Source: an uncultured Isosphaeraceae bacterium (GTDB lineage Bacteria > Planctomycetota > Planctomycetia > Isosphaerales > Isosphaeraceae). From it: DNA of 64,000 nucleotides. Within the stretch, counting starts at the first letter, position 1. The number at the start of each line of letters is the position of its first letter. Shown in pieces: positions 18,402 through 47,968 of the stretch. The notes below the pieces were generated by a model, which was not told the origin of the DNA, did not search any database, and saw only the letters and a list, made by a program, of their open reading frames with translations. The stretch lies in contig CAWGMM010000001.1 in NCBI GenBank assembly GCA_963823685.1, positions 60,355 to 124,354 of the forward strand. The letters run 5' to 3'. The translations under genes and the position numbers were made by a program.

Positions 18402-19895
18402 TCACTGACGTTCTTGAAGATACGCCGGCTCCTCGACGGGCACGCCTGCCGACCGTCTACCGAGGGGAGGAGGAGGCAGCTCGAGCTCGTGGCCTCCCAT
18501 CAGTTCGTCGATGCCCATCACGTAACCGTGCTCGCCATGCTGCGAGAGGTCGAGACCGATCTCCTCGGCCTCGGTGTCGACCCGGAGTCCGATGACCAGG
18601 TCCACCAGCTTCAAGATCACGAAGGTGACCGTGAAGCTATAGGTACCCGCCATGACGAGCGAGAGGGCCTGGTAGCCAAGCTGGGCGGGATTGCCGAAGA
18701 CGAGCCCGTTCACGTCGCCGCTGATACCGGCCTTGGCCAGGACGCCGACAGCCAGGGCGCCGAACGCGCCACCGACGCCATGCACGCCGAAGACGTCGAG
18801 CGAGTCGTCATAGCCAAGCTTGCTTTTCAGCAGGACCGCGCTGTAGCAGACCAGGCAGACCAGCTCGCCAATGATGACCGAACCCATCGGGGTGACGAAC
18901 CCGGCGGCCGGCGTGATCGCGACCAGGCCGGCGACAGCCCCGGTGCAGGCACCCAGTACCGTGCCTTTGCCCTTGTGCAGCCACTCGATCGTCATCCACG
19001 CGATCGCCGCCACGGCCGCCGCGGTGTTGGTGTTGATGAACGCGGCCACCGCCGAGCTGTTCGCCGCCAGGGCGCTGCCAGCATTGAAGCCGAACCAGCC
19101 GAACCACAGCAGCGCCGTGCCGAGCGCCGTCATCATCAGGTTGTGCGGGTGCATCTCTTCCTCGCCCAGACCCTTGCGCTTGCCCATCGTCAGGACGCAG
19201 CACAGCGCCGCGATCCCCGAGATCAGGTGCACCACCAGGCCGCCGGCGAAGTCCAAAGCGCCCAGGTGGACCCGGATCCAGCCGCCGGTTCCCCACACCC
19301 AGTGCGCCACCGGGTCGTACACGAACGTCGCCCACAGGAACGTGAACGTCAGGTAGGCCGAGAACTTCATCCGCTCGGCGAACGCCCCCGAGATCAACGC
19401 CGGCGTGATGATCGCGAACATCAACTGGTACACCATGAAGAGCTGGTGCGGAATCGTCGCCGCGTAGTCGGGGTTCGGCTCCAGACCGACTCCCTTCAAT
19501 CCGACCCATTCCAGCCCGCCGATGAAGCCGCCCAGCTTGTCGGGACCGAACGCCAGGCTATAGCCGAAGAGGACCCACTGGACCGCGACCACGCCCAGCA
19601 TGACAAAGCTTTGCTGGAAGGTGGCCAGCACGTTCTTGCGCCGGACCATGCCGCCGTAGAACAGGCCCAGACCCGGCGTCATGAACATCACCAGCGCGGC
19701 GCAGATCATCATGAACGCCGTATCAGCGCCGCTGATGGCCGGGGGGGGTGGAGTGGCTAGGGCGGCGGCGGTGGCGGGGGCGGAGGCCGCGGTAACGGCG
19801 GCGGCCGGCTCCTCGGCACTGGCCAAGCCGGATAGAGCCAGCAACGTCACGATCGCTGCACTCCACAGCAACCCTGCGCGTACCTTCGTCAACAT
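18402..19895 (-). CDS. amt: ammonium transporter (Amt/MEP family), paralog 2
   Basis: Same motifs; a central segment of about 115 aa is identical to paralog 1 at protein and nucleotide level (the antisense ORFs are also identical). Confidence 0.9.
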   Translation of the reverse strand: MLTKVRAGLLWSAAIVTLLALSGLASAEEPAAAVTAASAPATAAALATPPPPAISGADTAFMMICAALVMFMTPGLGLFYGGMVRRKNVLATFQQSFVMLGVVAVQWVLFGYSLAFGPDKLGGFIGGLEWVGLKGVGLEPNPDYAATIPHQLFMVYQLMFAIITPALISGAFAERMKFSAYLTFTFLWATFVYDPVAHWVWGTGGWIRVHLGALDFAGGLVVHLISGIAALCCVLTMGKRKGLGEEEMHPHNLMMTALGTALLWFGWFGFNAGSALAANSSAVAAFINTNTAAAVAAIAWMTIEWLHKGKGTVLGACTGAVAGLVAITPAAGFVTPMGSVIIGELVCLVCYSAVLLKSKLGYDDSLDVFGVHGVGGAFGALAVGVLAKAGISGDVNGLVFGNPAQLGYQALSLVMAGTYSFTVTFVILKLVDLVIGLRVDTEAEEIGLDLSQHGEHGYVMGIDELMGGHELELPPPPLGRRSAGVPVEEPAYLQERQ

Positions 19896-26983: not shown

Positions 26984-28546
26984 TCACGGCGTATTCTTGC
27001 TCTTATTCGGTTGGCCTGGCTTCGAATCGTTACCCTGAGCCGCTTTGAGAAGCGGTGCCTTCCGTTCCCAGGCGATCGCACGGCTGAAGAGGGTGGGATA
27101 AGGCTCATAGCCGTGTCCCTTGACGACCCTTAGGGTCAGGTCATCGAGCTGAGCGTCGAAGCTTCTTCGCATCGTCGCCAGTTTCTCCGTGTATCGAGGC
27201 TCGGACGCGAGGTTGGTCATCTCGAGTCGATCCCCACCGACGTGGAACAACTCCTCGACGGGCTGCATGCCATCGCCACCGTAGTACCAGTATATATATT
27301 TCCATTCTGGAGTCACCACGGCCATCGATTGGGCCGACCTTGCCCCCCAGAAGTTGAACAGGGGGAGCACGTCGTGAACCTGGCCGGTGGGATTGGTCAG
27401 CAGTGGCAGCAGGCTCTTGCCGTCGATGTCCGCAGGAGGCTCAACACCGGCCAGAGCGCAGAGGGTCGGAGCCATATCCACATTTCCCGTGATCGCGTGG
27501 CAGACGGTGCCGGCGTTCGCTCTGGGCAGGCGTGGATCATAGATCAGGAGCGGCGACTTCGAGCCTTCCTCGTAAGGCAAGACCTTGTCGCCGAAGCCGT
27601 GGGCGCCGCAGTTGTAGCCGTTATCCGAGGTGAAGATGATCACCGTCGATTCCGCAAGGCCCTCCCGTTCGAGCCCCGCGCGGATCATCCCGACCGCGGC
27701 GTCCACGCCCGCGACCAGGCGATAATAGTTCGCCAGCGCGGTGTCGTAGTCGTTGACCCAATCGCGGTAGCTGTTGAACGCCCGGCTCGTCCGGGCCTGG
27801 GGCGCGAGATATGCGGCGTTCTTGACTCCGTAATTGTCAGGCCGAGGGAAGGTCGCGTGATCGTAAAGCGGCCGGTCCAGCGGATCAGGCGTGTTGGGCA
27901 GATGCGGCGCCTTGAAGCTGACCGAGAGGCAGAACGGCTTGCCCGATTGCCTGGCCGCCTTGAGGAAATCAACCGCCCACGCCCCATACGCGCGAGAACA
28001 TTGCGGGTATTGCCCGGCGTACCGGGCGATCCCCTTGTTCTTCGCTGTCTCGTAAAAGGTCTGTCCCGGCCCTCCGGCCCACTGATCGAAAAATGTCTCG
28101 AACGCCTCGAAGGGTTCACCCTGAAGCACGAACCCGATCTTGCCGGCAAAGCCCGTGAAGTATCCCGACTCGCGAAGCCGGACGGGATACGACCGCACAA
28201 AGAACCGACGCTCCAGATCGCCGTGCTCGAAGTTGCAACCGTGGCGATACTCGTAGAGCCCCGTCAGCACGGAGCATCGGCTGGCCATGCAGATCGAGGT
28301 CGTATTGTAGTGATTGGTGAATCGGACCCCGTCGTGCGCGAGCCGGTCCAGGTGCGGGGTCTGGATCTGAGCGTTCCCGTAACAGCCCACGGCCATCGCG
28401 GTCTGATCGTCACTGAGCAGGAAGACAATGTTGGGCGGCGCGGCGACCGCCGCGGACCAGTCGGCAAGCCCGATCCCGATCGCCGCCACAAGTAAAAACT
28501 TGATCTTGCATTGAGCGAGACGCCTGGATGAATCCCGTCGGTTCAT
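26984..28546 (-). CDS. sulfatase (formylglycine-dependent arylsulfatase family)
   Basis: Signal peptide; LLSDDQ...SICMASRCS (C-x-A-x-R formylglycine motif). Confidence 0.85.
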   Translation of the reverse strand: MNRRDSSRRLAQCKIKFLLVAAIGIGLADWSAAVAAPPNIVFLLSDDQTAMAVGCYGNAQIQTPHLDRLAHDGVRFTNHYNTTSICMASRCSVLTGLYEYRHGCNFEHGDLERRFFVRSYPVRLRESGYFTGFAGKIGFVLQGEPFEAFETFFDQWAGGPGQTFYETAKNKGIARYAGQYPQCSRAYGAWAVDFLKAARQSGKPFCLSVSFKAPHLPNTPDPLDRPLYDHATFPRPDNYGVKNAAYLAPQARTSRAFNSYRDWVNDYDTALANYYRLVAGVDAAVGMIRAGLEREGLAESTVIIFTSDNGYNCGAHGFGDKVLPYEEGSKSPLLIYDPRLPRANAGTVCHAITGNVDMAPTLCALAGVEPPADIDGKSLLPLLTNPTGQVHDVLPLFNFWGARSAQSMAVVTPEWKYIYWYYGGDGMQPVEELFHVGGDRLEMTNLASEPRYTEKLATMRRSFDAQLDDLTLRVVKGHGYEPYPTLFSRAIAWERKAPLLKAAQGNDSKPGQPNKSKNTP

Positions 28547-28915
28547 GATCGACCCCGTGCTGGAATGACCCTGCAAGGCGGCGTTCCTGGTGACTTTTCG
28601 GGTTGGATCGTGGGTGCGGAACTCGTTCGCGATCAAGGTGGCCGCCCTGCATTTCGCGGGCTGCCGCCGGGGTGCTCGGGTTCGATTTCCGGGTGGACAC
28701 CTGGTGAGCCTTCGACTGCGTTTTACCAGAACCGAGACGCTCCGTGCATCGTCTTTCCGTCCCGCGCACTCCATTTTGCCACCAACCGGCAGAACTCGGC
28801 GAACTCGCACCGCGGGGACGAAACCCGTCCGGGTTTCGTGGGTTTAATCGGTCATGCGACCGGTACAAAGGTCTCGCAACGTCGCCAACGCCCTCATTTC
28901 CCGGGAGGATGCGTG

Positions 28916-30382
28916 ATGCAGCGCCCCTGGCGATTCCTGATGTTGATGTGCCTCACGCTTACGGCCTCGAGCGAGGCGGCCGAGCCATCGATCAGGCCGA
29001 ACATCATCGTCATCCTGGCCGACGATTACGGTTACGGCAGCGCCGGCTGTTATGGCGGTCAGGGGGTGAAAACGCCGAACCTCGACCGGCTCGGTCGCGA
29101 GGGCCGTCGTTTCACCCAGGCCTACGCGCCGGGCTCGGTCTGCTCGCCGACCCGCTATGGCCTGATGACCGGCCGCTACTACTGGCGTACGAGTGTCAAG
29201 GATGGCGAGGTGCTCCCGGGCAACGCCCCGTTGCACATCGAGACCGACCGGATGACGCTCGCCTCGCTCTGCAAGGGCCAGGGCTACCGGACCGCCGCGT
29301 TCGGCAAGTGGCACCTGGGCCTGGGCTCGGAGCGAACCACCGACTGGTCCGTCACCTTGAAGCCCGGCCCCCTTGAGATCGGCTTCGACCACTTTTTCGG
29401 CCTGGCGGCCAATCCCTGGAACGGCCCCCACACCTTTATCGAGGATCGCGGGCTGACCGGCCGGGTCCCCGGCCAGCCGGCGATCGTCCAGGGCCAGCGC
29501 GAGCAGAGCACGACCAGCGGCATCACCCAGCCCTGGGACGAGACCCGGATCATGCGCACCCTCACCGATCACGCTGTCGCCTGGCTTGAACAGAACCAGG
29601 CCAACGGCCCCTGCTTCCTTTACTTCGCGCCCAACGCGGTCCACATGCCAGTGGTCCCGAATCGAGCGTTCCGAGGAAGTCCTCTGGGTTCCTACGGCGA
29701 CTTCATCTCCGAGCTCGACTGGTCCGTAGGCCAGCTTCTCGACGCGCTCGACCGGACACACACCGCGGACAAGACCCTCGTGATCTTCACCAGCGACAAT
29801 GGCGGCGTGGTGAACCCTAATAACGAACCGTCGTCCAGCGCCATGAAAGCAGGGCTGGCCATCAACGGCGCCCTGCGCGGGGGCAAACACGACATCTGGG
29901 AAGGTGGATTTCGCGAGCCGTTCCTCGTTCGATGGCCCGGCCGCGTCCCGGCCGGCTCGGTGAGCGACCAGGTGATCTGCGTGACGGACGTGCTCGCCAC
30001 GCTCGCGGGCATCCTCGGAGTTCCGCTCCCCGACGGCCAGGCCGAGGACAGCTTCGACGCGCGCGAAGCCTTCCTCGCCACTCATCCCGCCCGGCCCGTG
30101 CGCGACCACGTCATCCTTCAGGATGCCCACGCCACCTACGCCGTCCGGTCGGGCGACTGGAAACTGATCGAGCGGCGCGATGCTCCCTCATTCACCCCTC
30201 GCAACGCCGGCGCCGCCAAGAAGATCGCCGCGGCTCGCAAGAAGGAAGCCGGGCACGACGAGCTGTTCAACCTGGCCAGCGACCCGGCCGAAACCAGGGA
30301 CGTCCACGCCCAACATCCCGACGTCGTGGCCCGGCTCCGTCAACTCCTGGCCGATTCCCGCGGGAATGGGCACACGCGCTGA
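28916..30382 (+). CDS. sulfatase (formylglycine-dependent), divergent from the previous gene
   Basis: Signal peptide; IVILADDYGYG...SVCSPTR motif. Confidence 0.85.
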   Translation: MQRPWRFLMLMCLTLTASSEAAEPSIRPNIIVILADDYGYGSAGCYGGQGVKTPNLDRLGREGRRFTQAYAPGSVCSPTRYGLMTGRYYWRTSVKDGEVLPGNAPLHIETDRMTLASLCKGQGYRTAAFGKWHLGLGSERTTDWSVTLKPGPLEIGFDHFFGLAANPWNGPHTFIEDRGLTGRVPGQPAIVQGQREQSTTSGITQPWDETRIMRTLTDHAVAWLEQNQANGPCFLYFAPNAVHMPVVPNRAFRGSPLGSYGDFISELDWSVGQLLDALDRTHTADKTLVIFTSDNGGVVNPNNEPSSSAMKAGLAINGALRGGKHDIWEGGFREPFLVRWPGRVPAGSVSDQVICVTDVLATLAGILGVPLPDGQAEDSFDAREAFLATHPARPVRDHVILQDAHATYAVRSGDWKLIERRDAPSFTPRNAGAAKKIAAARKKEAGHDELFNLASDPAETRDVHAQHPDVVARLRQLLADSRGNGHTR

Positions 30383-32566: not shown

Positions 32567-32958
32567 CTTCCACCAGAAATTGCGTCCTGGTTTATCGAAA
32601 AACCAAGAATACACACTTTCACGTAAAAATGCCGTTGGGAGGCGAGGCGCTCGCCGGTCACACCTCGGGAAGCGGGGTACCGCTTGAGCCGTCCGGGCCG
32701 TCGGCGTCCGATCAACGCCGGGTGCTCGCCGGGGTCGAGACCCCGCGGTGCACGTCGAGCGATGACCATTCACCGGCGCCCGGGACGGCGGAATCCGCGG
32801 ACCGCAGGGCTCCCTTTTCGTGCTGCCGCTGCGCGGCCATTGCCTGTGAAGGCAACGCCAACGCGGCGGCCAACCAGGCGTTCGCCCGCCTCCCGCGGGC
32901 GCGTGGGTCGAGACGTTTTGACGCGTCTCGGGCTCGGTCGGTGTTCAGCCGACTGCGG

Positions 32959-33030
32959 AGCAGTGGACGGGAATCGAACCCGTAACGTCCAGGTTATCAG
33001 CCTGGTGCTCTACCCTTGAGCTACCACGTC
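32959..33030 (-). tRNA. tRNA-Ile (anticodon GAU)-like; cloverleaf is intact except for two mismatched acceptor-stem pairs (2-71, 3-70)
   Basis: D-arm GCTC-AAGGGTA-GAGC, anticodon arm CCAGG-CTGATAA-CCTGG, variable loop ACGTT, T-arm ACGGG-TTCGATT-CCCGT. Confidence 0.55.
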
Positions 33031-33448
33031 CTGATACCGCGAAGTTTTGATCCCAGTCACGGAACGCCCTGGACCGATCGTCGCGAGACGAGGCCGGTGC
33101 GCCGCTGGCTTGTCGGTATCAGTCGCTTGCCTGGAACTCATGCGAGGGCCATGGACTCACCCGGCTCTCGCAATTGACGCCGATGGGAATCGAACCCACC
33201 TCGACCAGAACGGACCACGTCGGTCTCCTGGCCGATTTTCCGGCCTCTCCGGCTCCAGCGTCTCGTCTTGCCTGTCGGGACTTGACTCGATTCGCGTCGC
33301 TTCGTGACCGACCTGTCGTCCTCGACATCGTTTTCATTTTCGTAGACGCGCGTGTTCCGCGCGATGTTCGCGCGGCATCGTTGCTTTTTCCTGTGACACG
33401 AACCCGTCGAACCGAGGTCACGCTCCAGGCAGGCGAATCGTCCTCGGG

Positions 33449-34393
33449 TCACTCCGCCAGACCACGCCTGGCCTGTTCCAGGAGTGCCTTCATGCGCTCG
33501 ACCTCTGCGGCGAGCCTGTCGGCACGCTGCCGCTCCTGCTCGGCCATTTGTCGTTCTTGCTCGGCCCGCTGCTGTTCCTTCTCGGCCCGCTGCTGTTCCT
33601 TCTCGGCCCGCTGTTGTTCCTTCTCGGCCCGCTGTTGTTCCTTCTCGGCCCGCTGCTGTTCCTTCTCGGCTCGCTGCTGTTCCTTCTCGGCCCGCTGCTG
33701 TTCCTTCTCGGCCCGCTCTCGGGGCGTCAACACCAGGGCGCCGGTGGTGTCGATGAGCCGGAGCATCACGCCCTCGCCTTTCAGCATGAAGCCCAGTTCT
33801 TCACTCGTGAGACGGTCGTCATCGTCCAGGTCAATCGGCACGTAGTGCCCGCCAACGAGACGAAAGCCGACCAGCGGTGGTCGAAGGTATTCGCCCTCCG
33901 GGTCGAACAGGAAGTATTCGCGGACGCCCAGCCGCTCGTAGAGCCGGAGTTTCTCGCTCAGGTCTTCGCGCCAGGTGCTCAACGAGGCCATCTCGAACAC
34001 AACGGCCGGAACCGCGCCATTCTCGCGCCAGGTGAAGAACGAACGGCGGTGGCCCCGGCCCACTCCCTTGACGACCATGACATCGGGCGCGACTCGCGAC
34101 CTGGGTTGGCCCTCTTCCCAGTACCAGAACATGTCGGCGGCGATGAAGTCGCTGGTGGGCAGGACATCATGCAGCACCTCGTACAGGAAGATGATCGCCA
34201 GGACGTGAAGGCCGGTTTCACCCATGGGCTGTCCATCCGATGAGGGATACTCGACCTCGTCACGGTGCGATGAGGCGATCAACTGGGTGGTGATGGACAT
34301 GAGCACTTCTCCGCGATACCCGCATCCCTCTGGACCCCGACAACCCGTGCTGACTCGCGAGACCTCGAAATCCGGCTTCAACCCGGTACTCAA
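33449..34393 (-). CDS. Uma2-family (DUF820) nuclease-like protein, paralog 2, with a different heptad-repeat tail
   Basis: Core of about 180 aa nearly identical (also at nucleotide level) to 30424-31380; tail AEKEQQR repeated 8 times. Confidence 0.8.
   Translation of the reverse strand: MSTGLKPDFEVSRVSTGCRGPEGCGYRGEVLMSITTQLIASSHRDEVEYPSSDGQPMGETGLHVLAIIFLYEVLHDVLPTSDFIAADMFWYWEEGQPRSRVAPDVMVVKGVGRGHRRSFFTWRENGAVPAVVFEMASLSTWREDLSEKLRLYERLGVREYFLFDPEGEYLRPPLVGFRLVGGHYVPIDLDDDDRLTSEELGFMLKGEGVMLRLIDTTGALVLTPRERAEKEQQRAEKEQQRAEKEQQRAEKEQQRAEKEQQRAEKEQQRAEKEQQRAEQERQMAEQERQRADRLAAEVERMKALLEQARRGLAE
33530..33725. repeat. 21-bp tandem repeat array (about 8 copies, unit cttctcggcccgctgctgttc) encoding the heptad tail of Uma2 paralog 2
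   Basis: Direct reading of the sequence. Confidence 0.85.
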
Positions 34394-34548
34394 TCACTGT
34401 ACCAGGTTCCCGGCGCAATAAAAGCCCTGATGTGGACGGATGTCTCCTCACTCCTCGAACGTATCGCTCCGGGGCGGAAACGCAAGGGGGACGCACTCCC
34501 ATGGAAGGCGTCCCCGTGACGATCGTGATCAAAGGTTTCGGTCAACGG

Positions 34549-34677
34549 TCACTTGCCGAGCATCTTGGCCCCGACCCAGATAACGATGGCCCCCAGCACT
34601 CCGCCCCCGCAGAGCAAATAGGCCGCGGAATACCGCCACGCCGCGACGGCAAGCGGTAACATCTCGTAATATTCCAT
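34549..34677 (-). CDS. putative 42-aa single-TM peptide (MEYYEMLPLAVAAWRYSAAYLLCGGGVLGAIVIWVGAKMLGK)
   Basis: ORF only; hydrophobic helix with C-terminal lysines. Confidence 0.25.
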   Translation of the reverse strand: MEYYEMLPLAVAAWRYSAAYLLCGGGVLGAIVIWVGAKMLGK

Positions 34678-34964
34678 CGATCTCCCCTTCGGTGATAGGT
34701 AGAGGGTTTGAGGCGGTGAATCGATGATCGCCTCTCTGATGGAAACGTCACGAGCAAACCACATGCCGGAATCCACTTCCGGAACCGTCACCGCCCGCGA
34801 GATCGAAGCTGTTGGCATACCAGCGTCGCCGGGTCATGGTTAACGCAGTTCGGCCTGTCGTGGCGTTACGACGTCTTCGTGGTCACGTGAGAACGACAAT
34901 GAGGAACGACAGGCTGTCCAACTTCGAAAGGGCAAACCCCTGGATTTCCAGGGGTTTTGCCGGA

Positions 34965-35007
34965 TATGCCCGGCAGGACTTGAACCTGCAACCTTTAGCT
35001 CCGGAGG
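34965..35007. repeat. 43-bp direct repeat identical to the 3' end of tRNA-Arg(CCG) at 42307-42349 (att site, distal end of the integrated element)
   Basis: atgcccggcaggacttgaacctgcaacctttagctccggaggc is present identically at both positions. Confidence 0.85.
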
Positions 35008-35208
35008 CAAAAAGCCTACCGACGTAAGTGATGCCATCAAAGAACTTACGTCGAGTGATCCCGGCCGTTGCACTGTACGTTGCTCCAACATTGGTGAAAC
35101 CGACCCGCTGGCCGCGTTCGTCGCCGGCCTGACCGATGCCGACCGGCAACGGCTCGCCTCCCTCTTGCTCGACAAGGCCGAAGGGTCCGACCGAGGGGGG
35201 CTTGACCA

Positions 35209-35391
35209 ATGACCGAAACCGTCGTGACCTGCGATCGGTGCGGAACCCGGATCGATACCGATCGATCGAACCTGGCGAGTGTGTGCGGGCCGATTCGAGC
35301 GCGGCGGGCGGAGATCGATCTTTGTATGGCGTGCGTGGATGCATTCGAGACGTGGCTTCAACGCGGGATCGGGCGGGAGGAACGAGCATGA
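35209..35391 (+). CDS. small zinc-ribbon-like protein (CxxC...CxxC)
   Basis: VTCDRCGTRIDTD...LCMACVDAF four-Cys arrangement; ORF only. Confidence 0.3.
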   Translation: MTETVVTCDRCGTRIDTDRSNLASVCGPIRARRAEIDLCMACVDAFETWLQRGIGREERA

Positions 35392-36026
35392 GCGACCACA
35401 CCAACGGGACCGGGACCGAGAAGCGGAACAAACGAGGGCGACCGACGGTGCTGACCGAGGCCGTCCAGGCGACGATCCTCGCGAACCTGCGAGCGGGGAA
35501 CTATCTGGCGACGTCATGCCGCGCGGCGGGGATCTCGCCGCGAACCCTGGAAACCTGGCGACAACGGCATCGCGAGGGCGATCCGCGAGCGGATCGGCTG
35601 ACCGATTTCGTTCGGTGCGTCAAAAAGGCGATCTCCGAGGGCGAAACGGACTTGCTGGGGAAGGTTCGCGCCGGCGGACCGGGTTGGCAAAGCGCCGCGT
35701 GGATCTTGGAGCGAAGGTGGCGGGATCGATGGGGACGGAACCCCAACGTGGTTGTGAGCAGCGCGACGACCGGATACCGGACCGGAAGAACCCTTGGAAC
35801 CGGATTTCTCCGGTTTCGACGTCGGCGAGCTGGAAGCGTACCGCGATATGACGCGGCGAGCGTATGGCTCGTCCGGGTCCGCTCAACCCGCAAAAGCGCG
35901 GTAGAGTACACGCATCGGGACGGTCGCACTCCGGCCAGAGTTCGACCAAGCGGACCCGGTCGGCGCGCGGACCCCCTGCCCGCCACCGACTGGGTCCGAC
36001 CCGTATTGCAGGGGGACTCTCCATGA
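35388..36026 (+). CDS. phage terminase small subunit-like HTH protein
   Basis: KRGRPTVLTEAVQATILANLRAGNYLATSCRAAGISPRTLETWRQRH...AWILERRWRDRWGRN resembles the TerS N-terminal HTH family; ATGA overlap with the next ORF. Confidence 0.45.
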   Translation: MSDHTNGTGTEKRNKRGRPTVLTEAVQATILANLRAGNYLATSCRAAGISPRTLETWRQRHREGDPRADRLTDFVRCVKKAISEGETDLLGKVRAGGPGWQSAAWILERRWRDRWGRNPNVVVSSATTGYRTGRTLGTGFLRFRRRRAGSVPRYDAASVWLVRVRSTRKSAVEYTHRDGRTPARVRPSGPGRRADPLPATDWVRPVLQGDSP

Positions 36027-36673
36027 CGTCATCGCGAGACGCGCTCCGGGTATCGGAGCGGTTGCTCCAGTTAATTCATTCGGGATCGCTACCATCCCTA
36101 GGTCGGCTGACCTGGGATCGGACCGCGCCGCAACCACACATCATCAACTGGCTGCGGACGACGCTGGCGGCTCTCAACGAGTGGGTGAGCGGTCCGGTCG
36201 CGACCGATGACGATCCGCGAATCCGCGCCGCGCGGGAGCTGGTCCGATCCCTGCACGATCGTCTGTGTCCGCGACTTGACAATATCGCGAGCGGACGGGA
36301 TGGGATCACACTTGATGATGCGTCGAAACTCGTGGACGCGATCGTGATATTGCAAGACGCCGCACTGGATGATGCCGACGAACCCGAACCCGCGTGCTCT
36401 GAACCGGAGGGCTCGGGCGCGTCGGCGCGCCGTGCTGGCGACGATCTGACCGAGACAGAGGACAACATCCTCAAGGCATGCGGTGAGCTTGGAGCGTACG
36501 ACCTGCGATCGGCGCGGACCAAGGACGAGATTGCGCGGCGGGCCGGGTATACCTCAAGTGCCGCCCGGAACGTTCGGTCCGCGTTCGAATCGCTGAAAGC
36601 ACGCGGCATTACAACCGCCAAACGCAAGTCCGGGACCTGGCTCACACACGCCGGGCGCGAATTCGTGTCATAA
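36023..36673 (+). CDS. hypothetical protein with C-terminal winged-helix DNA-binding domain
   Basis: C-terminal ILKACGELGAYDLRSARTKDEIARRAGYTSSAARNVRSAFESLKARGI wH-like segment. Confidence 0.4.
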   Translation: MTSSRDALRVSERLLQLIHSGSLPSLGRLTWDRTAPQPHIINWLRTTLAALNEWVSGPVATDDDPRIRAARELVRSLHDRLCPRLDNIASGRDGITLDDASKLVDAIVILQDAALDDADEPEPACSEPEGSGASARRAGDDLTETEDNILKACGELGAYDLRSARTKDEIARRAGYTSSAARNVRSAFESLKARGITTAKRKSGTWLTHAGREFVS

Positions 36674-36785: not shown

Positions 36786-37010
36786 ATGTCCGCATCCGCA
36801 TCCGCAACGATCGAGAGTCCGGTTGAGCTGATCGACGTCCGCGAAGTCGCGCGGATGCTGAGCATCAGCGAACGACATATCTGGCGATCCGAGGACCGGG
36901 GGCTGATGCCGCGCGGCGTGCGAATCGGCGCGTCCGTCCGCTGGTCGCGCTCCGCGCTCGAAAAGTGGATCAACGACGGTTGCCCGCCGGTCCGCAAACC
37001 CGCGCGATGA
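36786..37010 (+). CDS. AlpA-family phage transcriptional regulator / excisionase-like HTH protein
   Basis: LIDVREVARMLSISERHIWRSEDRGLMPRGVRIGASVRWSRSALEKWI matches the AlpA/Xis HTH pattern. Confidence 0.65.
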   Translation: MSASASATIESPVELIDVREVARMLSISERHIWRSEDRGLMPRGVRIGASVRWSRSALEKWINDGCPPVRKPAR

Positions 37011-37143: not shown

Positions 37144-37626
37144 ATGCGCAAACGTCTGTCTGATATCGTACCATCGACCGAGGCGGAGTCAATCCGCCGG
37201 ACCTGGGACTCGACCGAGGCCGCGCCCGAAATGGGTCCGCTGCCGGCCGGAGAGTACCGTTGCATCGTCGAGTCCATCGACGTGCATGTGGCGAAATCGG
37301 GAACACCCGGCGTCAAAGTCGCGATGCGCGTTCACGATCCGGCTGCGTTCAAAGGTCGCAAGCTATGGGCCGATCACTGGCTCACTCCGGCCGCGCTCCC
37401 GATCACCAAGCGCGAGATCAAGCATCTCGGAATCGAGACGCTCGACGATCTGGAGAGACCTCTGCCGACCGATCGGCACATCATCATGAAGTGCTGCGTC
37501 ATTGTCCGAAAGGACGACGATGGGACCGAGCGGAACCGAGTCCGAAGCTGGGAGTTCGACGGCATCGCCACGCCGCAAGACGTCGAGCCGTTCGCGCCTC
37601 CCGCCGATGGGGAGGTCCCGTACTGA
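37144..37626 (+). CDS. hypothetical protein (element-borne)
   Basis: ORF only. Confidence 0.3.
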   Translation: MRKRLSDIVPSTEAESIRRTWDSTEAAPEMGPLPAGEYRCIVESIDVHVAKSGTPGVKVAMRVHDPAAFKGRKLWADHWLTPAALPITKREIKHLGIETLDDLERPLPTDRHIIMKCCVIVRKDDDGTERNRVRSWEFDGIATPQDVEPFAPPADGEVPY

Positions 37627-39559
37627 CATGGGCTCGACCCCCTGCCCGTTCGGGTTCCGAATCCAGGGTCCGACGCACGGGACACGGCATCTCATCGATT
37701 GGGATGCCGCGTTCCGGGCCTATGCCAGTCTCGACCCCCGGATCGACCCGAGCCAAGAGGCATATCTATCTGCGTTCACGTTCCCGGTCGAGTTTCAGGG
37801 ACCATCTTCGCTCGACCGGCTCGACGCGCGGCTACGCTGGCCGTTGCGGGGCTCGCTGGCTGTGGTGGGACATCGACCGGGAAGACAATCCGGGGCACGC
37901 CCTGGCGGACGCCAAGCGGCTTGTTGGCTCGTTGCTCGCCCGGTTCAAGTCGCTCGACGATGCCGACGTTCTGGCGTTCTTCTCCGGGAGCAAGGGATTC
38001 CATGTCGGCAAACCGATGTTCTGGGAACCCGAGCCGACCGCGACGTTTCACAAGGCGGCTCGACGGCTCGCCGAGCGGTTCGCGGCCGATGGTCGCGATC
38101 ACCATCGACGCGGGGTCTATGACAGCGTGCGCGCGTTTCGCGCTGCCCAACTCGCGTCATCCGAAGACCGGTCTGTTCAAGCGCCGGATTGACCATGACG
38201 CGCTCATGAGTTTGTCGATCGACGGCATCCGCCGGCTCGCCGAGCAACCCGCCGAGTTCGACCTGCCGGACCCGCGTCCGTCCGCCGCCGACGTCGCCAC
38301 CATGCGGAGCCTTTGGTCCGAAGCCAACGCCCATGACGCCAAACACAGCCGAAGGGTCCGACGCCAGGGGGCTCGACAACGGGCCGGCTCAACCGTCAGA
38401 CGTTCGATTTCATCCAGCGACGGGGCGGGGCCTGGCGACCGTCATCGGTTGCTGTTCTCCGCCGCCGCGAACCTGGCGGAGTTCGGTTGCTCGCCCGAAC
38501 TTGGCTTATGCGTTGCTCGCCGAGTCCGCGCTCGATTCGGGCCTGAGTCCGTTCGAGGTCCGCCGTCAGATTGGGTGCGGGCTTGCTCATATAAAAGGAC
38601 AACCGACATGAAGGGACCGGGGTTCGTCAGCGCGGCCGACGCTATTGGCTCATGGCGGGATCGACGTGCTCTCCGGTCGCAAGCCGACGCTCTGGACGGT
38701 CGGCATCGGGGGGCCTGGCGTCGGTGGAGATCGGGCCGGGGTTCATCGTGCTCATCGGTGCGCCGCCAGGGGCGGGTAAGACCGCGCTGGTCTGTCAGAT
38801 GACGCTCGACGCCTTGCGGACCGAGCCGTCGCTCAGGTGCTCGATCGCCAACGTTGAGGTCTCGCCCGCCGTCTTGCTCGACCGCCAGCTTGCCCGGCTT
38901 GGCGGGATCAACCTGGCAGAGATCCGGCATCGCCGGCTTGGTGCCGAGCATGCCGACCGGCTGGACTCGGGGGTTGGCCGCGATCGAGGGAATCGCCGAC
39001 CGACTCGCGTTCCTGGAATCGCCGTTCGACCTGCGCGAACGTGGCCGCATCGGCGGATACGTTCGGGGCGGACCTGATCGTCATCGACTACGTCCAACGC
39101 TTCGGCTCGCCCGGTTCGCAAGGGGACGGCCGGGTATCGATGAACGCGCTCATGGGGTTCCTGCGCGAGTTCGCCGACGCGGGCTGCGGGCTCATCGTGG
39201 TCTCGTCGGTCGCGCGGCAAAAGGACTCCAAGGGTGGTTCGTCATACGAAGATCTCAACATCGCGTCATTCCGGGAGTCGAGCGAACTGGAGTTCGGGGC
39301 GGACTCGGCTTTCATGCTGGTTGCCGACCCGGACGACGCCTCAAGCGTGACTCTCCGATGCTTGAAGAATCGCCACGGCGAGCCGGTTGACGTCGCCCTG
39401 CGATTCGACGGGGCTCGCCAGTCATTCACGCCTCGCGAGGCGGACGGGCCGAAGGGCAAGCCGTCGAGCAACGAGCAAGCCCTGCGCGACCTGGCGGAAC
39501 TATGGGGACGGACCCCGCCGGCCGATGACGACGCGGGGGACGATGCCGATGGGTACTGA
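37624..39559 (+). pseudogene. primase-helicase: AEP-type primase (Prim-Pol) + PriCT-like + DnaB-like P-loop helicase, split over at least 4 frames
   Basis: AEP motifs (AYLSAFTFPVEF; WDIDREDN; SGSKGFHV; NSRHPKTG), PriCT-like RHRLLFSAAANLAEFG, Walker A GAPPGAGKT, Walker B DLIVIDYVQ, arginine finger KNRHGE, distributed over overlapping ORFs in different frames. Confidence 0.6.
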
Positions 39560-40013
39560 CGCGCTGGCGGAACACGCTCGACGGCTGGCGGAGCTGGATG
39601 CGAGGGAAGCCGCCGCGCGTCGAGCCAGGGGCGAGCCGGACCCGCCGCCGCCCGAACCCAAGCCGCGCCCGGATCGACCCGCCGATCGGACCCGCCAGGG
39701 ACGGGGCCAGCCGAAGGGTCGGACGCGCGGACGCGAGTTCGCTCGACGCCAGGCGATCCGCAATGCGTTCGCGGACTGCCTTGCCGGGCTCGACCGGGGG
39801 GAGATCGCCGTGTGGGTCCTGCTCGACCGGGACACCAAGCCGGACGGAGCCGCGACGTGCCGCTCAATCCGACCTGGCGCGTCGGGCCGGGATCAACCCC
39901 CGGACGGTCCGCCGCGCTCTCGATTCGCTCGTTGCCGGGGACTGGTCAAGATCGTCCGCCAGGGGGGTTTCAACCGTGGCATGTCCACTTATCGAATTTG
40001 CAAACCTTCATGA
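39549..40013 (+). CDS. winged-helix/HTH protein (frameshifted, two frames)
   Basis: LARRAGINPRTVRRALDSLVAG in one frame and GLVKIVRQGGFNRGMSTYRI in another. Confidence 0.35.
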   Translation: MGTDALAEHARRLAELDAREAAARRARGEPDPPPPEPKPRPDRPADRTRQGRGQPKGRTRGREFARRQAIRNAFADCLAGLDRGEIAVWVLLDRDTKPDGAATCRSIRPGASGRDQPPDGPPRSRFARCRGLVKIVRQGGFNRGMSTYRICKPS

Positions 40014-40015
40014 AT

Positions 40016-40094
40016 CCCACAGAGGGCATGGGTGTCCGGTTGACCCCCTCCCACAGAGGGCATGGGTGTCCGTCACAGAGGGCATGGGTGCCCT
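40016..40094. repeat. three direct repeats of cacagagggcatgggtg(t/c)cc: iteron-like, candidate replication origin or recombinase arm sites
   Basis: Sequence at 40016-40037, 40051-40073 and 40075-40094, immediately downstream of the primase-helicase region. Confidence 0.6.
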
Positions 40095-40206
40095 ATATCC
40101 CAGTGTCTTACCCCTACGGGGTGAAGACACACGCACTGAGGTACTGACGTGCTGACGCACACGTACCCCAGTGCGGTTCGTAGGTCATCAGATCGGTAGG
40201 TAGTCG

Positions 40207-40602
40207 ATGCGCATGCCGTTCGGACAACATCGTGGTTGCATGCTTGCAGACGTTCCTGATCGCTACCTTTGGTGGGCGATCCGGGAAGCCGGCGCGACGG
40301 TCGATCGGTATCCCGGCTTGCGGCGTGCGATCGATATCCGCCTGGGAGTCCCGTACGCGAGCCCAACGGCCGGACCGTCCAAACCCCCGCCGACCGGCTC
40401 AACGTCGCGCCACGCGGACGCCAGGGCACTTGTCGAGTGCGTTCGCGGCGTGCTCAAGATCGCGTACCGCGAAGAGTCGATGCGATGCCATCCCGATCGG
40501 GGTGGATCGACCGACCGAATGATCGGGATCAATGAACTCAACGACCGGCTCAACGCGCTACTCGACCGGCAACTATCCGAATTTCTCAAGCAACGGTCTT
40601 GA
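40207..40602 (+). CDS. small protein with DUF3820/QSregVF_b-like N-terminus and C-terminal J-domain (HPD motif)
   Basis: MPFGQHRGCMLADVPDRYLWWAI; ...YREESMRCHPDRGGSTDRMIGINELNDRLN. Confidence 0.45.
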   Translation: MRMPFGQHRGCMLADVPDRYLWWAIREAGATVDRYPGLRRAIDIRLGVPYASPTAGPSKPPPTGSTSRHADARALVECVRGVLKIAYREESMRCHPDRGGSTDRMIGINELNDRLNALLDRQLSEFLKQRS

Positions 40603-40675: not shown

Positions 40676-42352
40676 ATGGGCAACGTTTACCGGAAGCAAG
40701 TGACCCGCCCGTTGCCGCCAGGGGCGGAGATCATCGAACGCAAGGGCGAACGGCTCGCCCGCTGGCGGGATGCCAGGGGCAAGATCCGAACCGCCCCCCT
40801 GACCGAATCCGGGGACCGCATCCGGGAAACGTCCCGGACGTTCCATGCCCGCTACCGGACCGGAGAGGGAACCATCGCCGACGTTCCGACCGGCTGCCGA
40901 GATGAGCAAGCCGCGCGGGCCGTTCTCGCCGACCTGGAGAAGCGGGCCGAAATGGTCAAGGCCGGAATCCTCAAGACCGCCGAGTTGCAAACCGCCGATC
41001 ATGCCCGGACGCCGATCGCCGAGCATTTCGATGCCTACCTGAACCATCATGACGCGGCCGGATCGGTCGCGTTGCATCGCCACAACGTTCGGACCTACCT
41101 GGATCGGATCGCCGCTGACTGCGGATTCCGCCGGCTCGCCGACCTGGATCGGTCCGCGTTCGAGAGCTGGCTGTCCCGCGAGACCAAACGCGGCCGGTCG
41201 GCCCGGTCCCGGAACACGCACCGGGCAACGCTCATCGCGTTCTGTCACTGGTGTTCCAGGCCGGAGGTTGCCCGGTTGGCGTCCAACCCGTTCAAGGGAA
41301 TCCCGAAAGCGGATGAGAAAGCGGACCCCCGCCGCAAGCGCCGGGCCATGACCGAGAGCGAGTTGACCCGGTTGCTCGACGTCGCCCGGACCCGCCCGCT
41401 GACCGAGGCCCTGACCGTCAGGAGAGGCAAGGCGAAGGGTTCGACCCATGCCAAGGTCCGCCCGGAGGTCCGCGAACGGCTCGACGCTCTCGGCCGGGAA
41501 CGCGCGTTGATCTACAAGACGCTCATCCTGACCGGACTTCGCAAGGGCGAGTTGACGAGTCTGACGATTGGTCAAGCCTGTCTCGACGGACCCCGCCCGT
41601 ACCTGGACCTGAGTGCGGCGGACGAGAAGAACCGGGAAGGGGCCTGGCTGCCCCTGCGGGCCGACCTGGCGGACGACTTGCGGCAATGGCTTGCCGACCG
41701 GCTGACATCGCTCCAAGACGACGCCAGGGGCCAAGGCGAGCCGATCCCGGTCCGATTGCCCGCCGACATGCCGTTGTTCAACGTTCCGGCCGGTCTGATC
41801 CGCATTTTCGACCGGGACTTGAAAGCCGCTGGGATCGCCAAGCGCGACGACCGAGGCCGGACGCTTGACGTCCATGCCCTGCGGACGTCGTTCGGCACGC
41901 TCTTGAGCGCGGGCGGGGTTCCATTGCGGACGGCTCAAGCCGCGATGCGGCATTCCGACCCCAGCTTGACCGCGAACGTGTATACCGACCCCCGGTTGCT
42001 CGACGTGGCCGGAGCGCTCGACGCCCTGCCGGCGCTTCGGCTCGACCGTCCCGACGTCGATAGCATGCGTGCGACCGGGACGGTCGGCGGGTCGAACCCT
42101 TCGGCTCGTTTGTGCCAGGGGCCTGTCACGTCCGTTGCACTAAATGTTGCTGCGAATCCGTGCAACGAGAGACAAGGAAGTTCAATTGGTGGCAAAATGA
42201 ACAGGACCGACCTGGAATTGGCCGGTCCTGATCGGTTCGCCGTAACTTCCATCTCTGACAGGGGAAATCATCTCGTGTCATTGCCTGACACTGGCTTCCC
42301 CTCAGTATGCCCGGCAGGACTTGAACCTGCAACCTTTAGCTCCGGAGGCTAA
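40676..42352 (+). CDS. int: tyrosine-type site-specific integrase; ORF runs into the tRNA-Arg gene
   Basis: Catalytic region LDVHALRTSFGTLL...RTAQAAMRHSD...ANVYTD (R..H..R..Y arrangement); N-terminal SAM-like/arm-binding domains. Confidence 0.85.
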   Translation: MGNVYRKQVTRPLPPGAEIIERKGERLARWRDARGKIRTAPLTESGDRIRETSRTFHARYRTGEGTIADVPTGCRDEQAARAVLADLEKRAEMVKAGILKTAELQTADHARTPIAEHFDAYLNHHDAAGSVALHRHNVRTYLDRIAADCGFRRLADLDRSAFESWLSRETKRGRSARSRNTHRATLIAFCHWCSRPEVARLASNPFKGIPKADEKADPRRKRRAMTESELTRLLDVARTRPLTEALTVRRGKAKGSTHAKVRPEVRERLDALGRERALIYKTLILTGLRKGELTSLTIGQACLDGPRPYLDLSAADEKNREGAWLPLRADLADDLRQWLADRLTSLQDDARGQGEPIPVRLPADMPLFNVPAGLIRIFDRDLKAAGIAKRDDRGRTLDVHALRTSFGTLLSAGGVPLRTAQAAMRHSDPSLTANVYTDPRLLDVAGALDALPALRLDRPDVDSMRATGTVGGSNPSARLCQGPVTSVALNVAANPCNERQGSSIGGKMNRTDLELAGPDRFAVTSISDRGNHLVSLPDTGFPSVCPAGLEPATFSSGG

Positions 42353-42379
42353 CGCTCTATCCAATTGAGCTACGGGCAC
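42306..42379 (-). tRNA. tRNA-Arg (anticodon CCG)
   Basis: Acceptor GTGCCCG/CGGGCAT (G1-U72 wobble), D-arm GCTC-AATTGGATA-GAGC, anticodon arm TTAGC-CTCCGGA-GCTAA, T-arm GCAGG-TTCAAGT-CCTGC. Confidence 0.8.
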
Positions 42380-47809: not shown

Positions 47810-47968
47810 CATCTTATCTGTCCCATCGGCGTTCTCGGTCGGCCGCAGATCAGTCGCGGCGATCTCGAACAAAACGCTGGGCAGGAGTTAGCACCAGCAT
47901 TCGCCATGGTGGCGAACCGGTTGCTGTGGCGTCGCAGGGCCCGTCCCTCAGCCACTCTGGATAAGATG
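47810..47968 (-). promoter_or_regulatory. SAM-I riboswitch (S-box) in the leader of the thrC-like operon
   Basis: Minus-strand sequence CATCTTATCCAGAGTGGCTGAGGGACGGGCCCTGCGACGCCACAGCAACC...GGTGCTAACTCCTGCCCAG...GATAAGATG matches the SAM-I consensus (P1 pairing, GAGGGA, GGCCC, GCAACC, GGTGCTAA). Confidence 0.75.

What the first reader, a model, noticed from the sequence alone, without database searches (positions are those of the whole stretch)
40016..40094. Iteron-like triple direct repeat downstream of the primase-helicase gene
Three copies of cacagagggcatgggtg(t/c)cc lie within 80 bp in a non-coding stretch between the helicase/HTH genes and the J-domain gene. Their position relative to pri-rep matches the ori iterons of PICIs and of rolling-circle or theta replicons. 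They could alternatively be integrase arm-type sites.
Basis: seen in the sequence. Interest (0 to 1): 0.5.

Follow-up and report, generated by a model that had tools for sequence, protein, structure and literature searches.

The report
Replication-origin repeats of an integrated element
The three repeats are real and are most likely the binding sites (iterons) of a small phage-lambda-O-like DNA-binding protein at the replication origin of a 7.3-kb mobile element inserted in a tRNA-Arg gene of a planctomycete; this is an ordinary kind of feature, in an element family that has not been described.

Summary
There are three copies of CACAGAGGGCATGGGTG at 40018, 40052 and 40074. They occur nowhere else in the window, and they start 2 nt after the stop codon of a winged-helix (wHTH) gene.

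The array lies inside a 7.34-kb element bounded by a 44-bp direct repeat (34965-35008 = 42306-42349) in tRNA-Arg(CCG). The element's gene order is excisionase-like HTH, DUF669 (SSB-like), AEP-type primase, DnaB-type helicase, wHTH, ARRAY, small ORF, integrase.

Twenty related metagenomic elements have the same layout after the wHTH gene: 2-4 imperfect palindromic sites at fixed offsets (about -67/-43/-20) from a conserved box (ATCCCAKAA...), then a GC-rich palindrome. The site sequence differs between elements and tracks the wHTH recognition helix. All 20 wHTH proteins match the PHROG families 'replication initiation O-like'.

Arm-type integrase sites are unlikely, because the array is 2.2 and 5.0 kb from the att cores.

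The origin reading is therefore well supported by comparison, but it is not proven. No AT-rich unwinding element, circular form or binding data were found, and the covariation statistics do not exclude simple co-descent. In the window the replication genes carry about 10 frameshifts, so this copy may be inactive. Verdict: a new member of a known kind, of moderate interest.

The parts
40015..40038 (+). Site 1 of the array (TCCCACAGAGGGCATGGGTGTCCG; imperfect palindrome AGGGCA-TGGG-TGTCCG)
   Evidence: 76 nt upstream of the box
40049..40072 (+). Site 2, identical to site 1
   Evidence: 42 nt upstream of the box
40071..40094 (+). Site 3, the best palindrome (AGGGCA-TGGG-TGCCCT). It ends 2-3 nt before the conserved box, as the last site does in all relatives
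40095..40104 (+). Degenerate copy of the family's conserved box (TATATCCCAG; family consensus (C/T)AT(A/C)TCCCA(G/T)AAGGGACCATAA)
40103..40130 (+). Hairpin/palindrome 1 (GTGTCTTACCCC-TAC-GGGGTGAAGACAC)
   Evidence: the equivalent GC-rich palindrome is present in every relative with different stem sequences
40132..40176 (+). Hairpin/palindrome 2 (CGCACTGAGGTAC...GTACCCCAGTGCG). Its loop ACGTGCTGACGCACAC resembles the loop in relative L108
39520..40013 (+). wHTH gene (O-like/HTH_36 winged helix), the proposed site-binding initiator. It is broken by two frameshifts (about 39858 and about 39935). The start is approximate
38608..39559 (+). DnaB_C/AAA_25-type helicase gene, in four or five frame pieces
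37637..38602 (+). AEP-type primase-like gene, in four frame pieces
37147..37638 (+). DUF669 (phage SSB-like) gene, intact
36795..37007 (+). HTH_17 excisionase-like gene
40207..40602 (+). Small ORF (131 aa) with a QSregVF_b-like N-terminal motif and a weak J-domain-like HPD region. It takes the place of the XRE-type HTH gene found in most relatives
40676..42352 (+). Tyrosine integrase, intact. Its last ~15 codons are encoded by the att core
34965..35008 (.). attL: 44-bp exact copy of the tRNA-Arg 3' half
42306..42349 (.). attR core inside tRNA-Arg(CCG) (gene at 42305-42379, minus strand)

Best explanation
The triple repeat is the initiator-binding (iteron) part of the replication origin of a 7.34-kb integrative element sitting in tRNA-Arg(CCG) of an Isosphaeraceae-like planctomycete. 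Proposed mechanism, with what is shown and what is inferred marked step by step. (1) After excision by the integrase, dimers of the small winged-helix protein encoded immediately upstream bind the three imperfectly palindromic sites. That protein is related to the N-terminal origin-binding domain of lambda-O-like initiators and to HTH_36 plasmid Rep proteins. The palindromes and the protein family are shown; binding is inferred. (2) The fixed geometry of the sites relative to the conserved box and GC-rich palindrome suggests a defined nucleoprotein complex, comparable to the lambda O-some on four 18-bp iterons. The geometry is shown; the complex is inferred. (3) That complex would recruit the element's own DnaB-type helicase and AEP-type primase, with the DUF669 SSB-like protein coating the unwound DNA, to start theta-type replication. 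The box and palindrome next to the last site are the likeliest entry or priming point. This step is inferred. In this particular copy the primase, helicase and wHTH genes carry about 10 frameshifts. Unless these are assembly errors, the origin is a recently orphaned cis site that could only work with proteins supplied in trans.
For: The element is bounded by a 44-bp direct repeat in tRNA-Arg. The gene order HTH_17, DUF669, primase, DnaB_C helicase, wHTH, array, integrase is shared with intact relatives. In 20 module-carrying loci the DNA after the wHTH stop holds 2-4 palindromic sites, a conserved box and a GC-rich palindrome. The sites start at -67/-43/-20 from the box in most loci and at -76/-42/-20 in the window. 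The box occurs in 17 of 20 module loci and in no module-less integrase locus at a comparable place. The array stays with the replication genes when cargo separates it from the integrase (L035, L036, L052, L055, L090, L099, L101). In L110 it stays with the box when a gene is inserted after the wHTH gene. Identical recognition helices go with identical site classes, and the window, L090 and L110 share similar helices and similar sites (xGGC[GA]TGGGTGCCx). Mantel r=0.47, p=1e-4; the partial correlation controlling for the rest of the protein, the integrase or the helicase is 0.34-0.45, p<=6e-4. All 20 wHTH proteins hit phrog_678 'replication initiation O-like', 19 hit phrog_391 and 18 hit phrog_270; initiator families dominate the ranking. 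HTH_36 is found in nearly all of 2,248 family members. HTH_36 proteins are plasmid Rep proteins (PMC3832669). Lambda ori consists of four 18-bp iterons bound by O (PMC3349717). The primase-helicase-WH order with the WH predicted to read the origin is a recognised MGE theme (PMC5862659).
Against: There are no binding, replication or copy-number data. No clear AT-rich unwinding element lies next to the array; the most AT-rich 20-mers in the window are the 3' end of the wHTH gene at 65% AT. The predicted fold of the wHTH is a generic winged helix closest to CodY/MarR regulators, so it does not separate an initiator from a regulator. Site distance also correlates with integrase and helicase distance (r 0.41-0.48, and partials remain 0.34-0.46), so the covariation is not specific to the wHTH. 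No circular contig was found among 34 whole-contig relatives. The exact repeat is unique to this element: there is no array in 185,579 species genomes. The window's replication genes are frameshifted.
Confidence: 0.68

Rival explanations
1. Transcriptional operator. The wHTH protein is a MarR/ArsR-type regulator, and the array is where it represses or activates the downstream promoter (small ORF and integrase) or feeds back on read-through from the replication operon. It would not be an origin.
For: The fold search gives CodY/MarR regulators as the closest solved structures. Sources annotate family members as ArsR/MarR regulators. In many relatives a TTGAC-N17-TAtAAT promoter for the XRE-HTH and integrase operon follows within about 100-150 bp. 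Iteron-binding initiators often autoregulate as well, so the two functions are not exclusive.
Against: The array stays attached to the wHTH gene, box and palindrome, not to the promoter. In seven relatives cargo genes or a directly abutting ORF follow instead of the integrase promoter. The sites lie more than 100 bp upstream of the -35 and are separated from it by a strong palindrome. No promoter-like site was found in the window. Among phage protein families the best and most frequent matches are replication initiators, not regulators.
Confidence: 0.15
2. Integrase arm-type sites. The N-terminal domain of the tyrosine integrase binds the repeats to build the intasome.
For: They are direct repeats in an element with a lambda-type tyrosine integrase. 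Site distance also correlates with the integrase N-terminal domain (r=0.39; partial 0.35).
Against: Arm sites lie within roughly 100-200 bp of the core (established knowledge of lambda-type attP). Here the array is 2,212 bp from attR and 5,007 bp from attL, and the motif is absent from 400 bp on either side of the reconstructed attP. A better-placed candidate, CCGTTGCACTnnnnGTTGCTnC, lies 174 bp before and 57 bp after the core. Integrase relatives that lack the helicase-wHTH module lack the box, so the array-box unit tracks the replication module. The palindromic form of the sites is atypical for arm sites.
Confidence: 0.03
3. A 3'-UTR or terminator structure, or a small RNA. The repeats and hairpins act at the RNA level at the end of the replication operon.
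For: The array begins 2 nt after the last stop codon of the operon. 40090-40200 folds into two strong hairpins (z = -4.5). A GC-rich hairpin is conserved in position with changing stem sequence.
Against: No T/U tract follows the hairpins, and the terminator scan found nothing. There is no Rfam family. The repeats themselves are palindromes at fixed helical spacing, which is a DNA-protein signature. The alignment-based fold found no covarying pairs beyond an invariant 4-bp stem. At most this explains the hairpins, not the repeats.
Confidence: 0.07
4. Packaging (pac/cos-like) or partition site of a phage-satellite-like element.
For: The window's element carries a terS-like HTH protein (phrog_4102, 6.5e-24). 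Arrays of repeats are typical of pac and par sites.
Against: The terS-like gene is at the other end of the element and is absent from relatives that have the same array architecture. The conserved box is not found in viral contigs apart from two chance hits, and the integrase family is almost absent from IMG/VR. There is no ParA/ParB.
Confidence: 0.03

Closest known systems
Phage lambda ori and O protein (lambdoid initiator-type origins, including P22 gene 18 with its DnaB-like gene 12)
   Same: Several (3-4) short sites of about 18 bp with internal dyad symmetry lie roughly 20-25 bp apart and are bound by a winged-helix initiator domain. The sites sit directly 3' of the DNA that encodes that domain. 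The wHTH proteins here match O-like PHROG families (lambda facts from PMC3349717).
   Different: The initiator here is only about 110-145 aa, with no C-terminal helicase-loader-binding domain. The iterons lie after the gene, not inside it. The element brings its own AEP primase and helicase. No 38-bp AT-rich stretch follows; instead there is a conserved box and a GC-rich palindrome. The host is a high-GC planctomycete.
PICI/SaPI pri-rep-ori modules and phage P4 alpha (primase-helicase-winged-helix) with ori/crr
   Same: These are small tRNA- or site-specifically integrated elements with a primase, a helicase and a specificity determinant, and with the iterons immediately 3' of the replication genes. 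Iteron sequence differs between elements together with the binding domain.
   Different: The proteins are not homologous at detectable sequence level to SaPI Rep or P4 alpha. The closest annotated phage or plasmid helicases are <=29% identical. The three activities are separate genes. There is no second iteron cluster. No helper-phage link was shown.
AEP primase-helicase-WH replication proteins of integrated MGEs (PrimPol-PV1 supergroup; Kazlauskas et al. 2018, PMC5862659)
   Same: An AEP-type primase is followed by a RepA/DnaB-type helicase and a winged helix predicted to recognise the origin, on tRNA-integrated elements flanked by direct repeats.
   Different: In that paper the domains are mostly fused in one polypeptide, and origins were not mapped. 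Membership of the window's primase in any of the named AEP families was not tested here.
IncQ (RSF1010) oriV with RepC iterons and ssiA/ssiB hairpins, RepA helicase and RepB' primase
   Same: There are three separate proteins (site-specific binder, RecA-fold hexameric helicase, AEP-like primase) and an origin made of about 20-bp iterons followed by hairpin-forming sequences (recalled from established knowledge, not tested).
   Different: By sequence the helicase groups with the DnaB C-terminal domains, not specifically with RepA. The primase has no detectable match to solved structures. Whether the hairpins are priming signals is unknown.

Membership tests
Iteron-type replication origin | Multiple copies of one short sequence clustered next to the gene of the replicon's own initiator | tested here: met
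   Three copies lie within 80 bp, starting 2 nt after the wHTH gene and occurring nowhere else. The same arrangement is seen in 20 relatives.
Iteron-type replication origin | Repeat sequence is element-specific and changes together with the initiator's DNA-reading residues | tested here: inconclusive
   Identical recognition helices go with identical site classes. Helix-site Mantel r=0.47, with partials of 0.34-0.45. But the integrase and helicase also correlate (0.41-0.48), so co-descent is not excluded.
Iteron-type replication origin | Adjacent DNA-unwinding element (AT-rich) | tested here: inconclusive
   No marked AT-rich block was found. The best 20-mers in the window are 65% AT, inside the 3' end of the wHTH gene. 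In relatives the richest spots are the downstream promoter or a purine tract.
Iteron-type replication origin | Initiator binds the repeats, and the segment supports replication in cis | not testable with these tools
   This needs EMSA or footprinting and a replication assay.
Lambda O-like / HTH_36 initiator family (the protein proposed to read the repeats) | Sequence match to O-like initiator profiles over the N-terminal winged helix | tested here: met
   20/20 match phrog_678 (best 5.7e-8), 19/20 match phrog_391 and 18/20 match phrog_270. PF13730 is present in nearly all family members. Note that the Pfam hits of the L036 protein are at or below the gathering threshold (MarR_2 27.2 bits vs 27; HTH_36 20.6 vs 25).
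Lambda O-like / HTH_36 initiator family (the protein proposed to read the repeats) | C-terminal domain that recruits the helicase or loader (as in lambda O) | tested here: not met
   The proteins are about 110-145 aa and consist of the winged helix only. They are therefore 'O-N-terminal-domain-like', not full O homologues.
Integrase arm-type sites | Located within about 200 bp on either side of the att core in attP | tested here: not met
   The array is 2,212 and 5,007 bp from the cores, and the motif is absent within 400 bp of the reconstructed attP.
PICI / phage satellite | Int, a regulator and pri-rep with an adjacent ori, plus genes that hijack a helper phage (terS, capsid redirection), and size/packaging by a helper | tested here: inconclusive
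   Int, primase, helicase and the array are present, and there is a terS-like hit. But there are no capsid or redirection genes, no helper is known, the family is almost absent from viral contigs, and the terS-like gene is not shared by relatives.
Rolling-circle replicon (double-strand origin) | HUH Rep nickase and a nick site | tested here: not met
   No Rep_1/2/trans or HUH domain was found in any element ORF; the replication genes are a primase and a helicase.

The most novel reading that the evidence does not exclude
The array, the invariant box (ATCCCAKAAGGGACCAKAA) and the GC-rich palindrome, held at fixed distances, may define a previously undescribed origin type. It would serve a large family (thousands of members in soil, peat and freshwater metagenomes) of small tRNA-integrating elements of planctomycetes and other high-GC bacteria. 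In this reading a minimal, stand-alone O-N-terminal-like winged helix positions the element's own AEP primase and DnaB-type helicase on a conserved entry/priming signal (the box and palindrome) rather than on an AT-rich unwinding element. If so, the module would be a ready-made replicon for Planctomycetota, for which replicating vectors are lacking (the plasmidome preprint 10.1101/2024.01.22.576637 notes that IncQ/IncP/pBBR replicons fail there).
Probability: 0.3. Interest if true: 0.55.

Novelty: new member of a known kind. Interest (0 to 1): 0.35.

Why it matters
Iterons next to replication genes are textbook biology, so the finding itself is not surprising. Its value lies in the context.

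- It delimits a complete small integrative element in a planctomycete.
- It shows that a large, uncharacterised family of such elements shares a rigid origin-like architecture: variable sites, an invariant box and a palindrome.
- It assigns a likely function (origin recognition) to a widespread family of small proteins currently annotated as hypothetical or as ArsR/MarR regulators.
- An intact relative (for example L036 or L066) would give a testable minimal replicon for a phylum with few genetic tools.

Tried and rejected
- **Exact-core scan of 185,579 species genomes:** 34 single-copy hits in unrelated taxa, about the number expected by chance for a 17-mer in 1.2e12 positions, and no arrays. 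The repeat sequence itself is therefore private to this element.
- **Retrieval of the source contig via the integrase:** not on record. The cluster look-up gave no accession.
- **Rfam at gathering and permissive thresholds:** nothing relevant.
- **Promoter and terminator consensus scans:** nothing.
- **Sequence search of PDB:** nothing for the primase or the wHTH. The helicase matches only the DnaB C-terminal domain, so the RSF1010 RepA/RepB'/RepC parallel stays an analogy.
- **Annotated plasmids and phages:** no close relatives of the helicase.
- **Box motif and integrase family in IMG/VR:** two chance hits and two distant integrases. I therefore dropped the idea that the box is a helper-phage pac/cos signal.
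- **MAFFT and RNAalifold on the box-hairpin region:** this failed to align the variable-length palindrome and returned only an invariant 4-bp stem. I replaced it with per-locus folding, which shows conservation of a palindrome but is not a formal covariation test.
- **Whole-protein Mantel test:** it did not single out the wHTH. The recognition-helix version gave an independent but non-exclusive signal.
- **Circular-contig check:** negative. Two further context look-ups were uninformative.
- **Fold search of the wHTH model:** a generic winged helix, not discriminating.

Full report
**Observation**

The window at 40015-40094 contains three direct copies of one unit.
- Copies at 40015-40038 and 40049-40072 are identical 24-mers.
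- The copy at 40071-40094 matches 19/24.
- The 17-nt core CACAGAGGGCATGGGTG is exact in all three.

With up to three mismatches the core has no other match on either strand of the 64-kb window. The expectation is 0.22, and none of 100 shuffles reached three. Each unit is an imperfect palindrome: AGGGCA-TGGG-TGCCCT is perfect in the third copy, and TGTCCG replaces the right arm in the first two. The pattern GGGCA-N4-TGYCC occurs only at these three places.

**Context: an integrated element**

Two tRNA genes flank the area. A 44-bp exact direct repeat, 34965-35008 = 42306-42349, equals the 3' half of tRNA-Arg(CCG). It delimits a 7,341-bp insert. An intact tyrosine integrase (40676-42352, PF00589) reads into the right-hand repeat.

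The host is an Isosphaeraceae-like planctomycete. An adjacent ammonium transporter is 77-81% identical to Singulisphaera proteins and lies on the same 225,605-bp contig as the integrase.

**Genes of the element**

The integrase family is large. Two relatives with context (L035, L036) and 80 metagenomic loci were fetched. L036 carries an intact element with this gene order:
- HTH_17, excisionase-like
- a 156-aa ORF
- DUF669, phage SSB-like
- a 328-aa AEP-type primase (phrog_16345, 7e-22; weak DNA_primase_S)
- a 318-aa DnaB_C/AAA_25 helicase
- a 111-aa winged-helix protein
- non-coding DNA, cargo, a small XRE-type HTH gene, and the integrase

tblastn with these proteins shows the same genes in the same order in the window. 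However, the primase, the helicase and the wHTH genes are each split over several reading frames.

The wHTH homologue ends at the stop codon 40011-40013, at the same relative position as in the intact proteins. The repeats are therefore outside the coding region even after frame correction.

**The same place in relatives**

Twenty loci carry the helicase-wHTH module. In essentially all of them the DNA after the wHTH stop has one architecture:
- **Sites.** There are two to four imperfectly palindromic sites of 16-18 bp, such as GGGGACGCTGGCGCCCC, GGGACG-N4-CGTCCC, GGGACATAGCTATGTCCC, CGGACAG...CTGTCC, GGTGGCGTGGGTGCCACC, GTGAC-N6-GTCAC, GTAGGC-N6-GCCTAC and CGGCAC-N4-GTGCCG. Often the middle one is a half-site followed by ACATTTYGNGYNNTTT.
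- **Box.** An almost invariant box follows: (C/T)AT(A/C)TCCCA(G/T)AAGGGACCATAA.
- **Palindrome.** A GC-rich palindrome of 10-19 bp comes next. Its stem sequence differs between loci.
- **Tail.** A purine-rich tract follows.

The last site always ends 2-3 nt before the box. The other sites start 43 and 67 nt upstream of it in most loci, giving spacings of 22-25 or 47-49. The window has -76/-42/-20, so its first interval is about one helical turn longer. The window also has a degenerate box (TATATCCCAG) and two strong hairpins (z = -4.5).

The box is present at the expected place in 17 of 20 module loci, and in no module-less integrase locus at a comparable place. The array stays with the replication genes where cargo separates it from the integrase. 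In L110, where a gene has been inserted after the wHTH gene, the array stays with the box and palindrome. The relatives have repeats at the same position, with different sequences.

**Who reads the sites**

The sites are palindromes, which suits a dimeric winged-helix protein. The predicted structure of a family member (mean pLDDT 76, >90 across the domain) is a winged helix. Its closest solved folds are CodY-C and MarR, which is not discriminating.

By sequence, all 20 wHTH proteins, including the frame-corrected one of the window, match phrog_678 'replication initiation O-like' (best E 5.7e-8). Nineteen match phrog_391, 18 match phrog_270 and 14 match a DnaD-like loader family. Regulator families come well behind. 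The matches cover the N-terminal part of the O-like profiles.

The family has at least 2,248 members, and nearly all carry Pfam HTH_36. HTH_36 proteins are Rep proteins of Paracoccus plasmids (PMC3832669). They are also listed as candidate initiators on three planctomycete plasmids (10.1101/2024.01.22.576637).

The recognition helix goes with the site class:
- NRRNVGRA goes with GGGGAC..GCCCC (three loci).
- DRRTVGRS goes with GGGACA-N6-TGTCCC (two loci).
- (E/D)RTVRR goes with GGACA... (three loci).
- DRRSVLRA versus DRRSVSRA goes with GTGAC-N6-GTCAC versus GGGAC-N6-GTCCC.
- The window (NPRTVRRAL), L090 (NLRTVKRAV) and L110 (DPSTVKRAV) share sites of the form xGGC[GA]TGGGTGCCx.

Quantitatively, site distance correlates with helix distance (Mantel r = 0.47, p = 1e-4). 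It still does after controlling for the rest of the protein (0.34), the integrase (0.41) or the helicase (0.45). However, the integrase and helicase distances also correlate with site distance (0.41-0.48; partials 0.34-0.46). A whole-protein test did not favour the wHTH. The covariation therefore fits wHTH-site co-evolution but does not exclude plain co-descent of the whole element.

**Mechanism**

The best-supported reading is that the array is the iteron part of the element's origin.
- wHTH dimers bind the three sites (binding is inferred).
- The fixed geometry implies a defined complex next to the box and palindrome (the geometry is shown; the complex is inferred).
- The element's own helicase, AEP primase and SSB-like protein then start theta-type replication of the excised circle (inferred).

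This parallels lambda, where O binds four 18-bp iterons that lie just after the part of gene O encoding its DNA-binding domain (PMC3349717). It also parallels the primase-helicase-winged-helix order described for AEP primases of integrated elements (PMC5862659). PICI/SaPI pri-rep-ori and P4 alpha/ori are similar from established knowledge.

There are differences:
- The initiator is a stand-alone winged helix without a C-terminal recruiting domain.
- There is no marked AT-rich block.
- A conserved box and a palindrome take the position where lambda has its AT-rich region.

**Rivals**

- **Arm-type integrase sites** are unlikely. The array is 2,212 and 5,007 bp from the att cores, and its motif is absent around the reconstructed attP. 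A better-placed 22-nt motif (CCGTTGCACTnnnnGTTGCTnC at 42132 and 35065, with an inverted partial copy at 42160) flanks the core.
- **A pure transcriptional operator** is possible but fits the comparative data less well, because the array follows the replication genes and not the downstream promoter. A dual role is common for iteron-binding initiators and is not excluded.
- **An RNA-level role** (terminator or sRNA) could apply to the hairpins but not to the phased palindromic repeats. No terminator consensus or Rfam family was found.
- **A pac or par site** has no support.

**State of this copy**

About ten frameshifts lie between 37.6 and 40.0 kb. Almost all are +1, and they are mostly single-base insertions in non-homopolymer contexts. 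None falls in the integrase, in DUF669 or in neighbouring host genes. The fragments keep 45-60% identity to intact homologues. I could not decide between recent pseudogenisation of the replication module and local consensus error in the assembly. If the frameshifts are real, the array is an orphaned cis site.

**Novelty**

Neither the helicase (<=29% identity in annotated phages and plasmids) nor the element family appears in the annotated collections or in the literature I searched. The kind of feature is classical. I rate it a new member of a known kind, with moderate interest. The main interest is that it gives a testable minimal replicon and an annotation for a large family of small 'regulator-like' proteins in Planctomycetota and other environmental bacteria.

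Noticed in passing
window 42290-42352 and 34952-35212: The integrase ORF ends inside the att core: its last ~15 codons (..CPAGLEPATFSSGG*) are the complement of the tRNA-Arg 3' half. This holds family-wide (the alignment consensus ends ..PAGFEPxTSS). In the excised circle the ORF would read on into the left end of the element, giving 625 aa instead of 558. The integrase C-terminus therefore depends on the integration state.
   Followed up: partly
window 37637-40013: About ten frameshifts are confined to the primase, helicase and wHTH genes. Nearly all are +1, and most are single-base insertions outside homopolymers (for example ACG-T-GCC and CTG-C-GCG); there is one G-run deletion near 39935. 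The integrase, DUF669 and host genes are intact. Pseudogenisation versus local assembly error is unresolved.
   Followed up: partly
window 42128-42170 and 35063-35086: Candidate integrase arm-type sites: CCGTTGCACTnnnnGTTGCTnC lies 174 bp before and 57 bp after the reconstructed attP core (18/22 identical), with an inverted partial copy at 42160. The 9-mer alone is at chance frequency in the window.
   Followed up: partly
window 35133-36026: An ORF has a strong match to a PHROG 'terminase small subunit' family (phrog_4102, E 6.5e-24, residues 96-206) plus weak HTH_29/HTH_Tnp_1 hits. It is absent from relative L036. This could hint at a phage-satellite lifestyle, or it may only be a shared HTH domain. 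The left 2 kb of the element also looks frame-broken (overlapping ORFs 35133-36026 and 35852-36673).
   Followed up: no
window 40207-40602: A 131-aa ORF between the array and the integrase has an N-terminal QSregVF_b/ExoX-C-like motif (E 1.6e-6) and a sub-threshold DnaJ match (E 0.068) around an HPD motif. It takes the place of the XRE-type HTH gene that precedes the integrase in most relatives. A J-domain next to an O-like origin would be interesting, since lambda needs DnaJ/DnaK at ori, but the evidence is weak.
   Followed up: partly
relatives L035-L110, 70-100 nt after the wHTH stop; window 40095-40176: An almost invariant box, ATCCCA(G/T)AAGGGACCA(T/G)AA, is followed after about 20 nt by a 10-19-bp GC-rich palindrome whose stem sequence varies between loci. 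Many stems read GCGTC(A)CCC...GGG(T)GACGC. The box contains a tandem CCAKAAG and a TCCC/GGGA mini-stem. The function is unknown; candidates are a helicase/primase entry signal or a terminator.
   Followed up: partly
window 16757-18346 and 18402-19895 (minus strand): There are two tandem ammonium-transporter (Amt) paralogues about 85% identical to each other. The closest named relatives are in Singulisphaera/Isosphaeraceae.
   Followed up: no
window 47844-47967 (minus strand): A SAM-I riboswitch (RF00162, 51.6 bits) lies upstream of the minus-strand gene ending near 47.8 kb.
   Followed up: no
window 33030-34965: Between tRNA-Ile(GAT) (32957-33030) and attL lies a Uma2-family putative endonuclease gene (33449-34393, minus strand; PF05685, 2.6e-20) with lower-GC DNA around 34-35 kb. 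This may be a remnant of another insertion next to the tRNA genes.
   Followed up: no
window 26984-28810 (minus) and 28565-30382 (plus): Two long ORFs on opposite strands overlap by about 250 bp, and both match arylsulfatase profiles (C-terminal part on the minus strand, N-terminal part on the plus strand). At least one of the two ORF extents is probably spurious.
   Followed up: no
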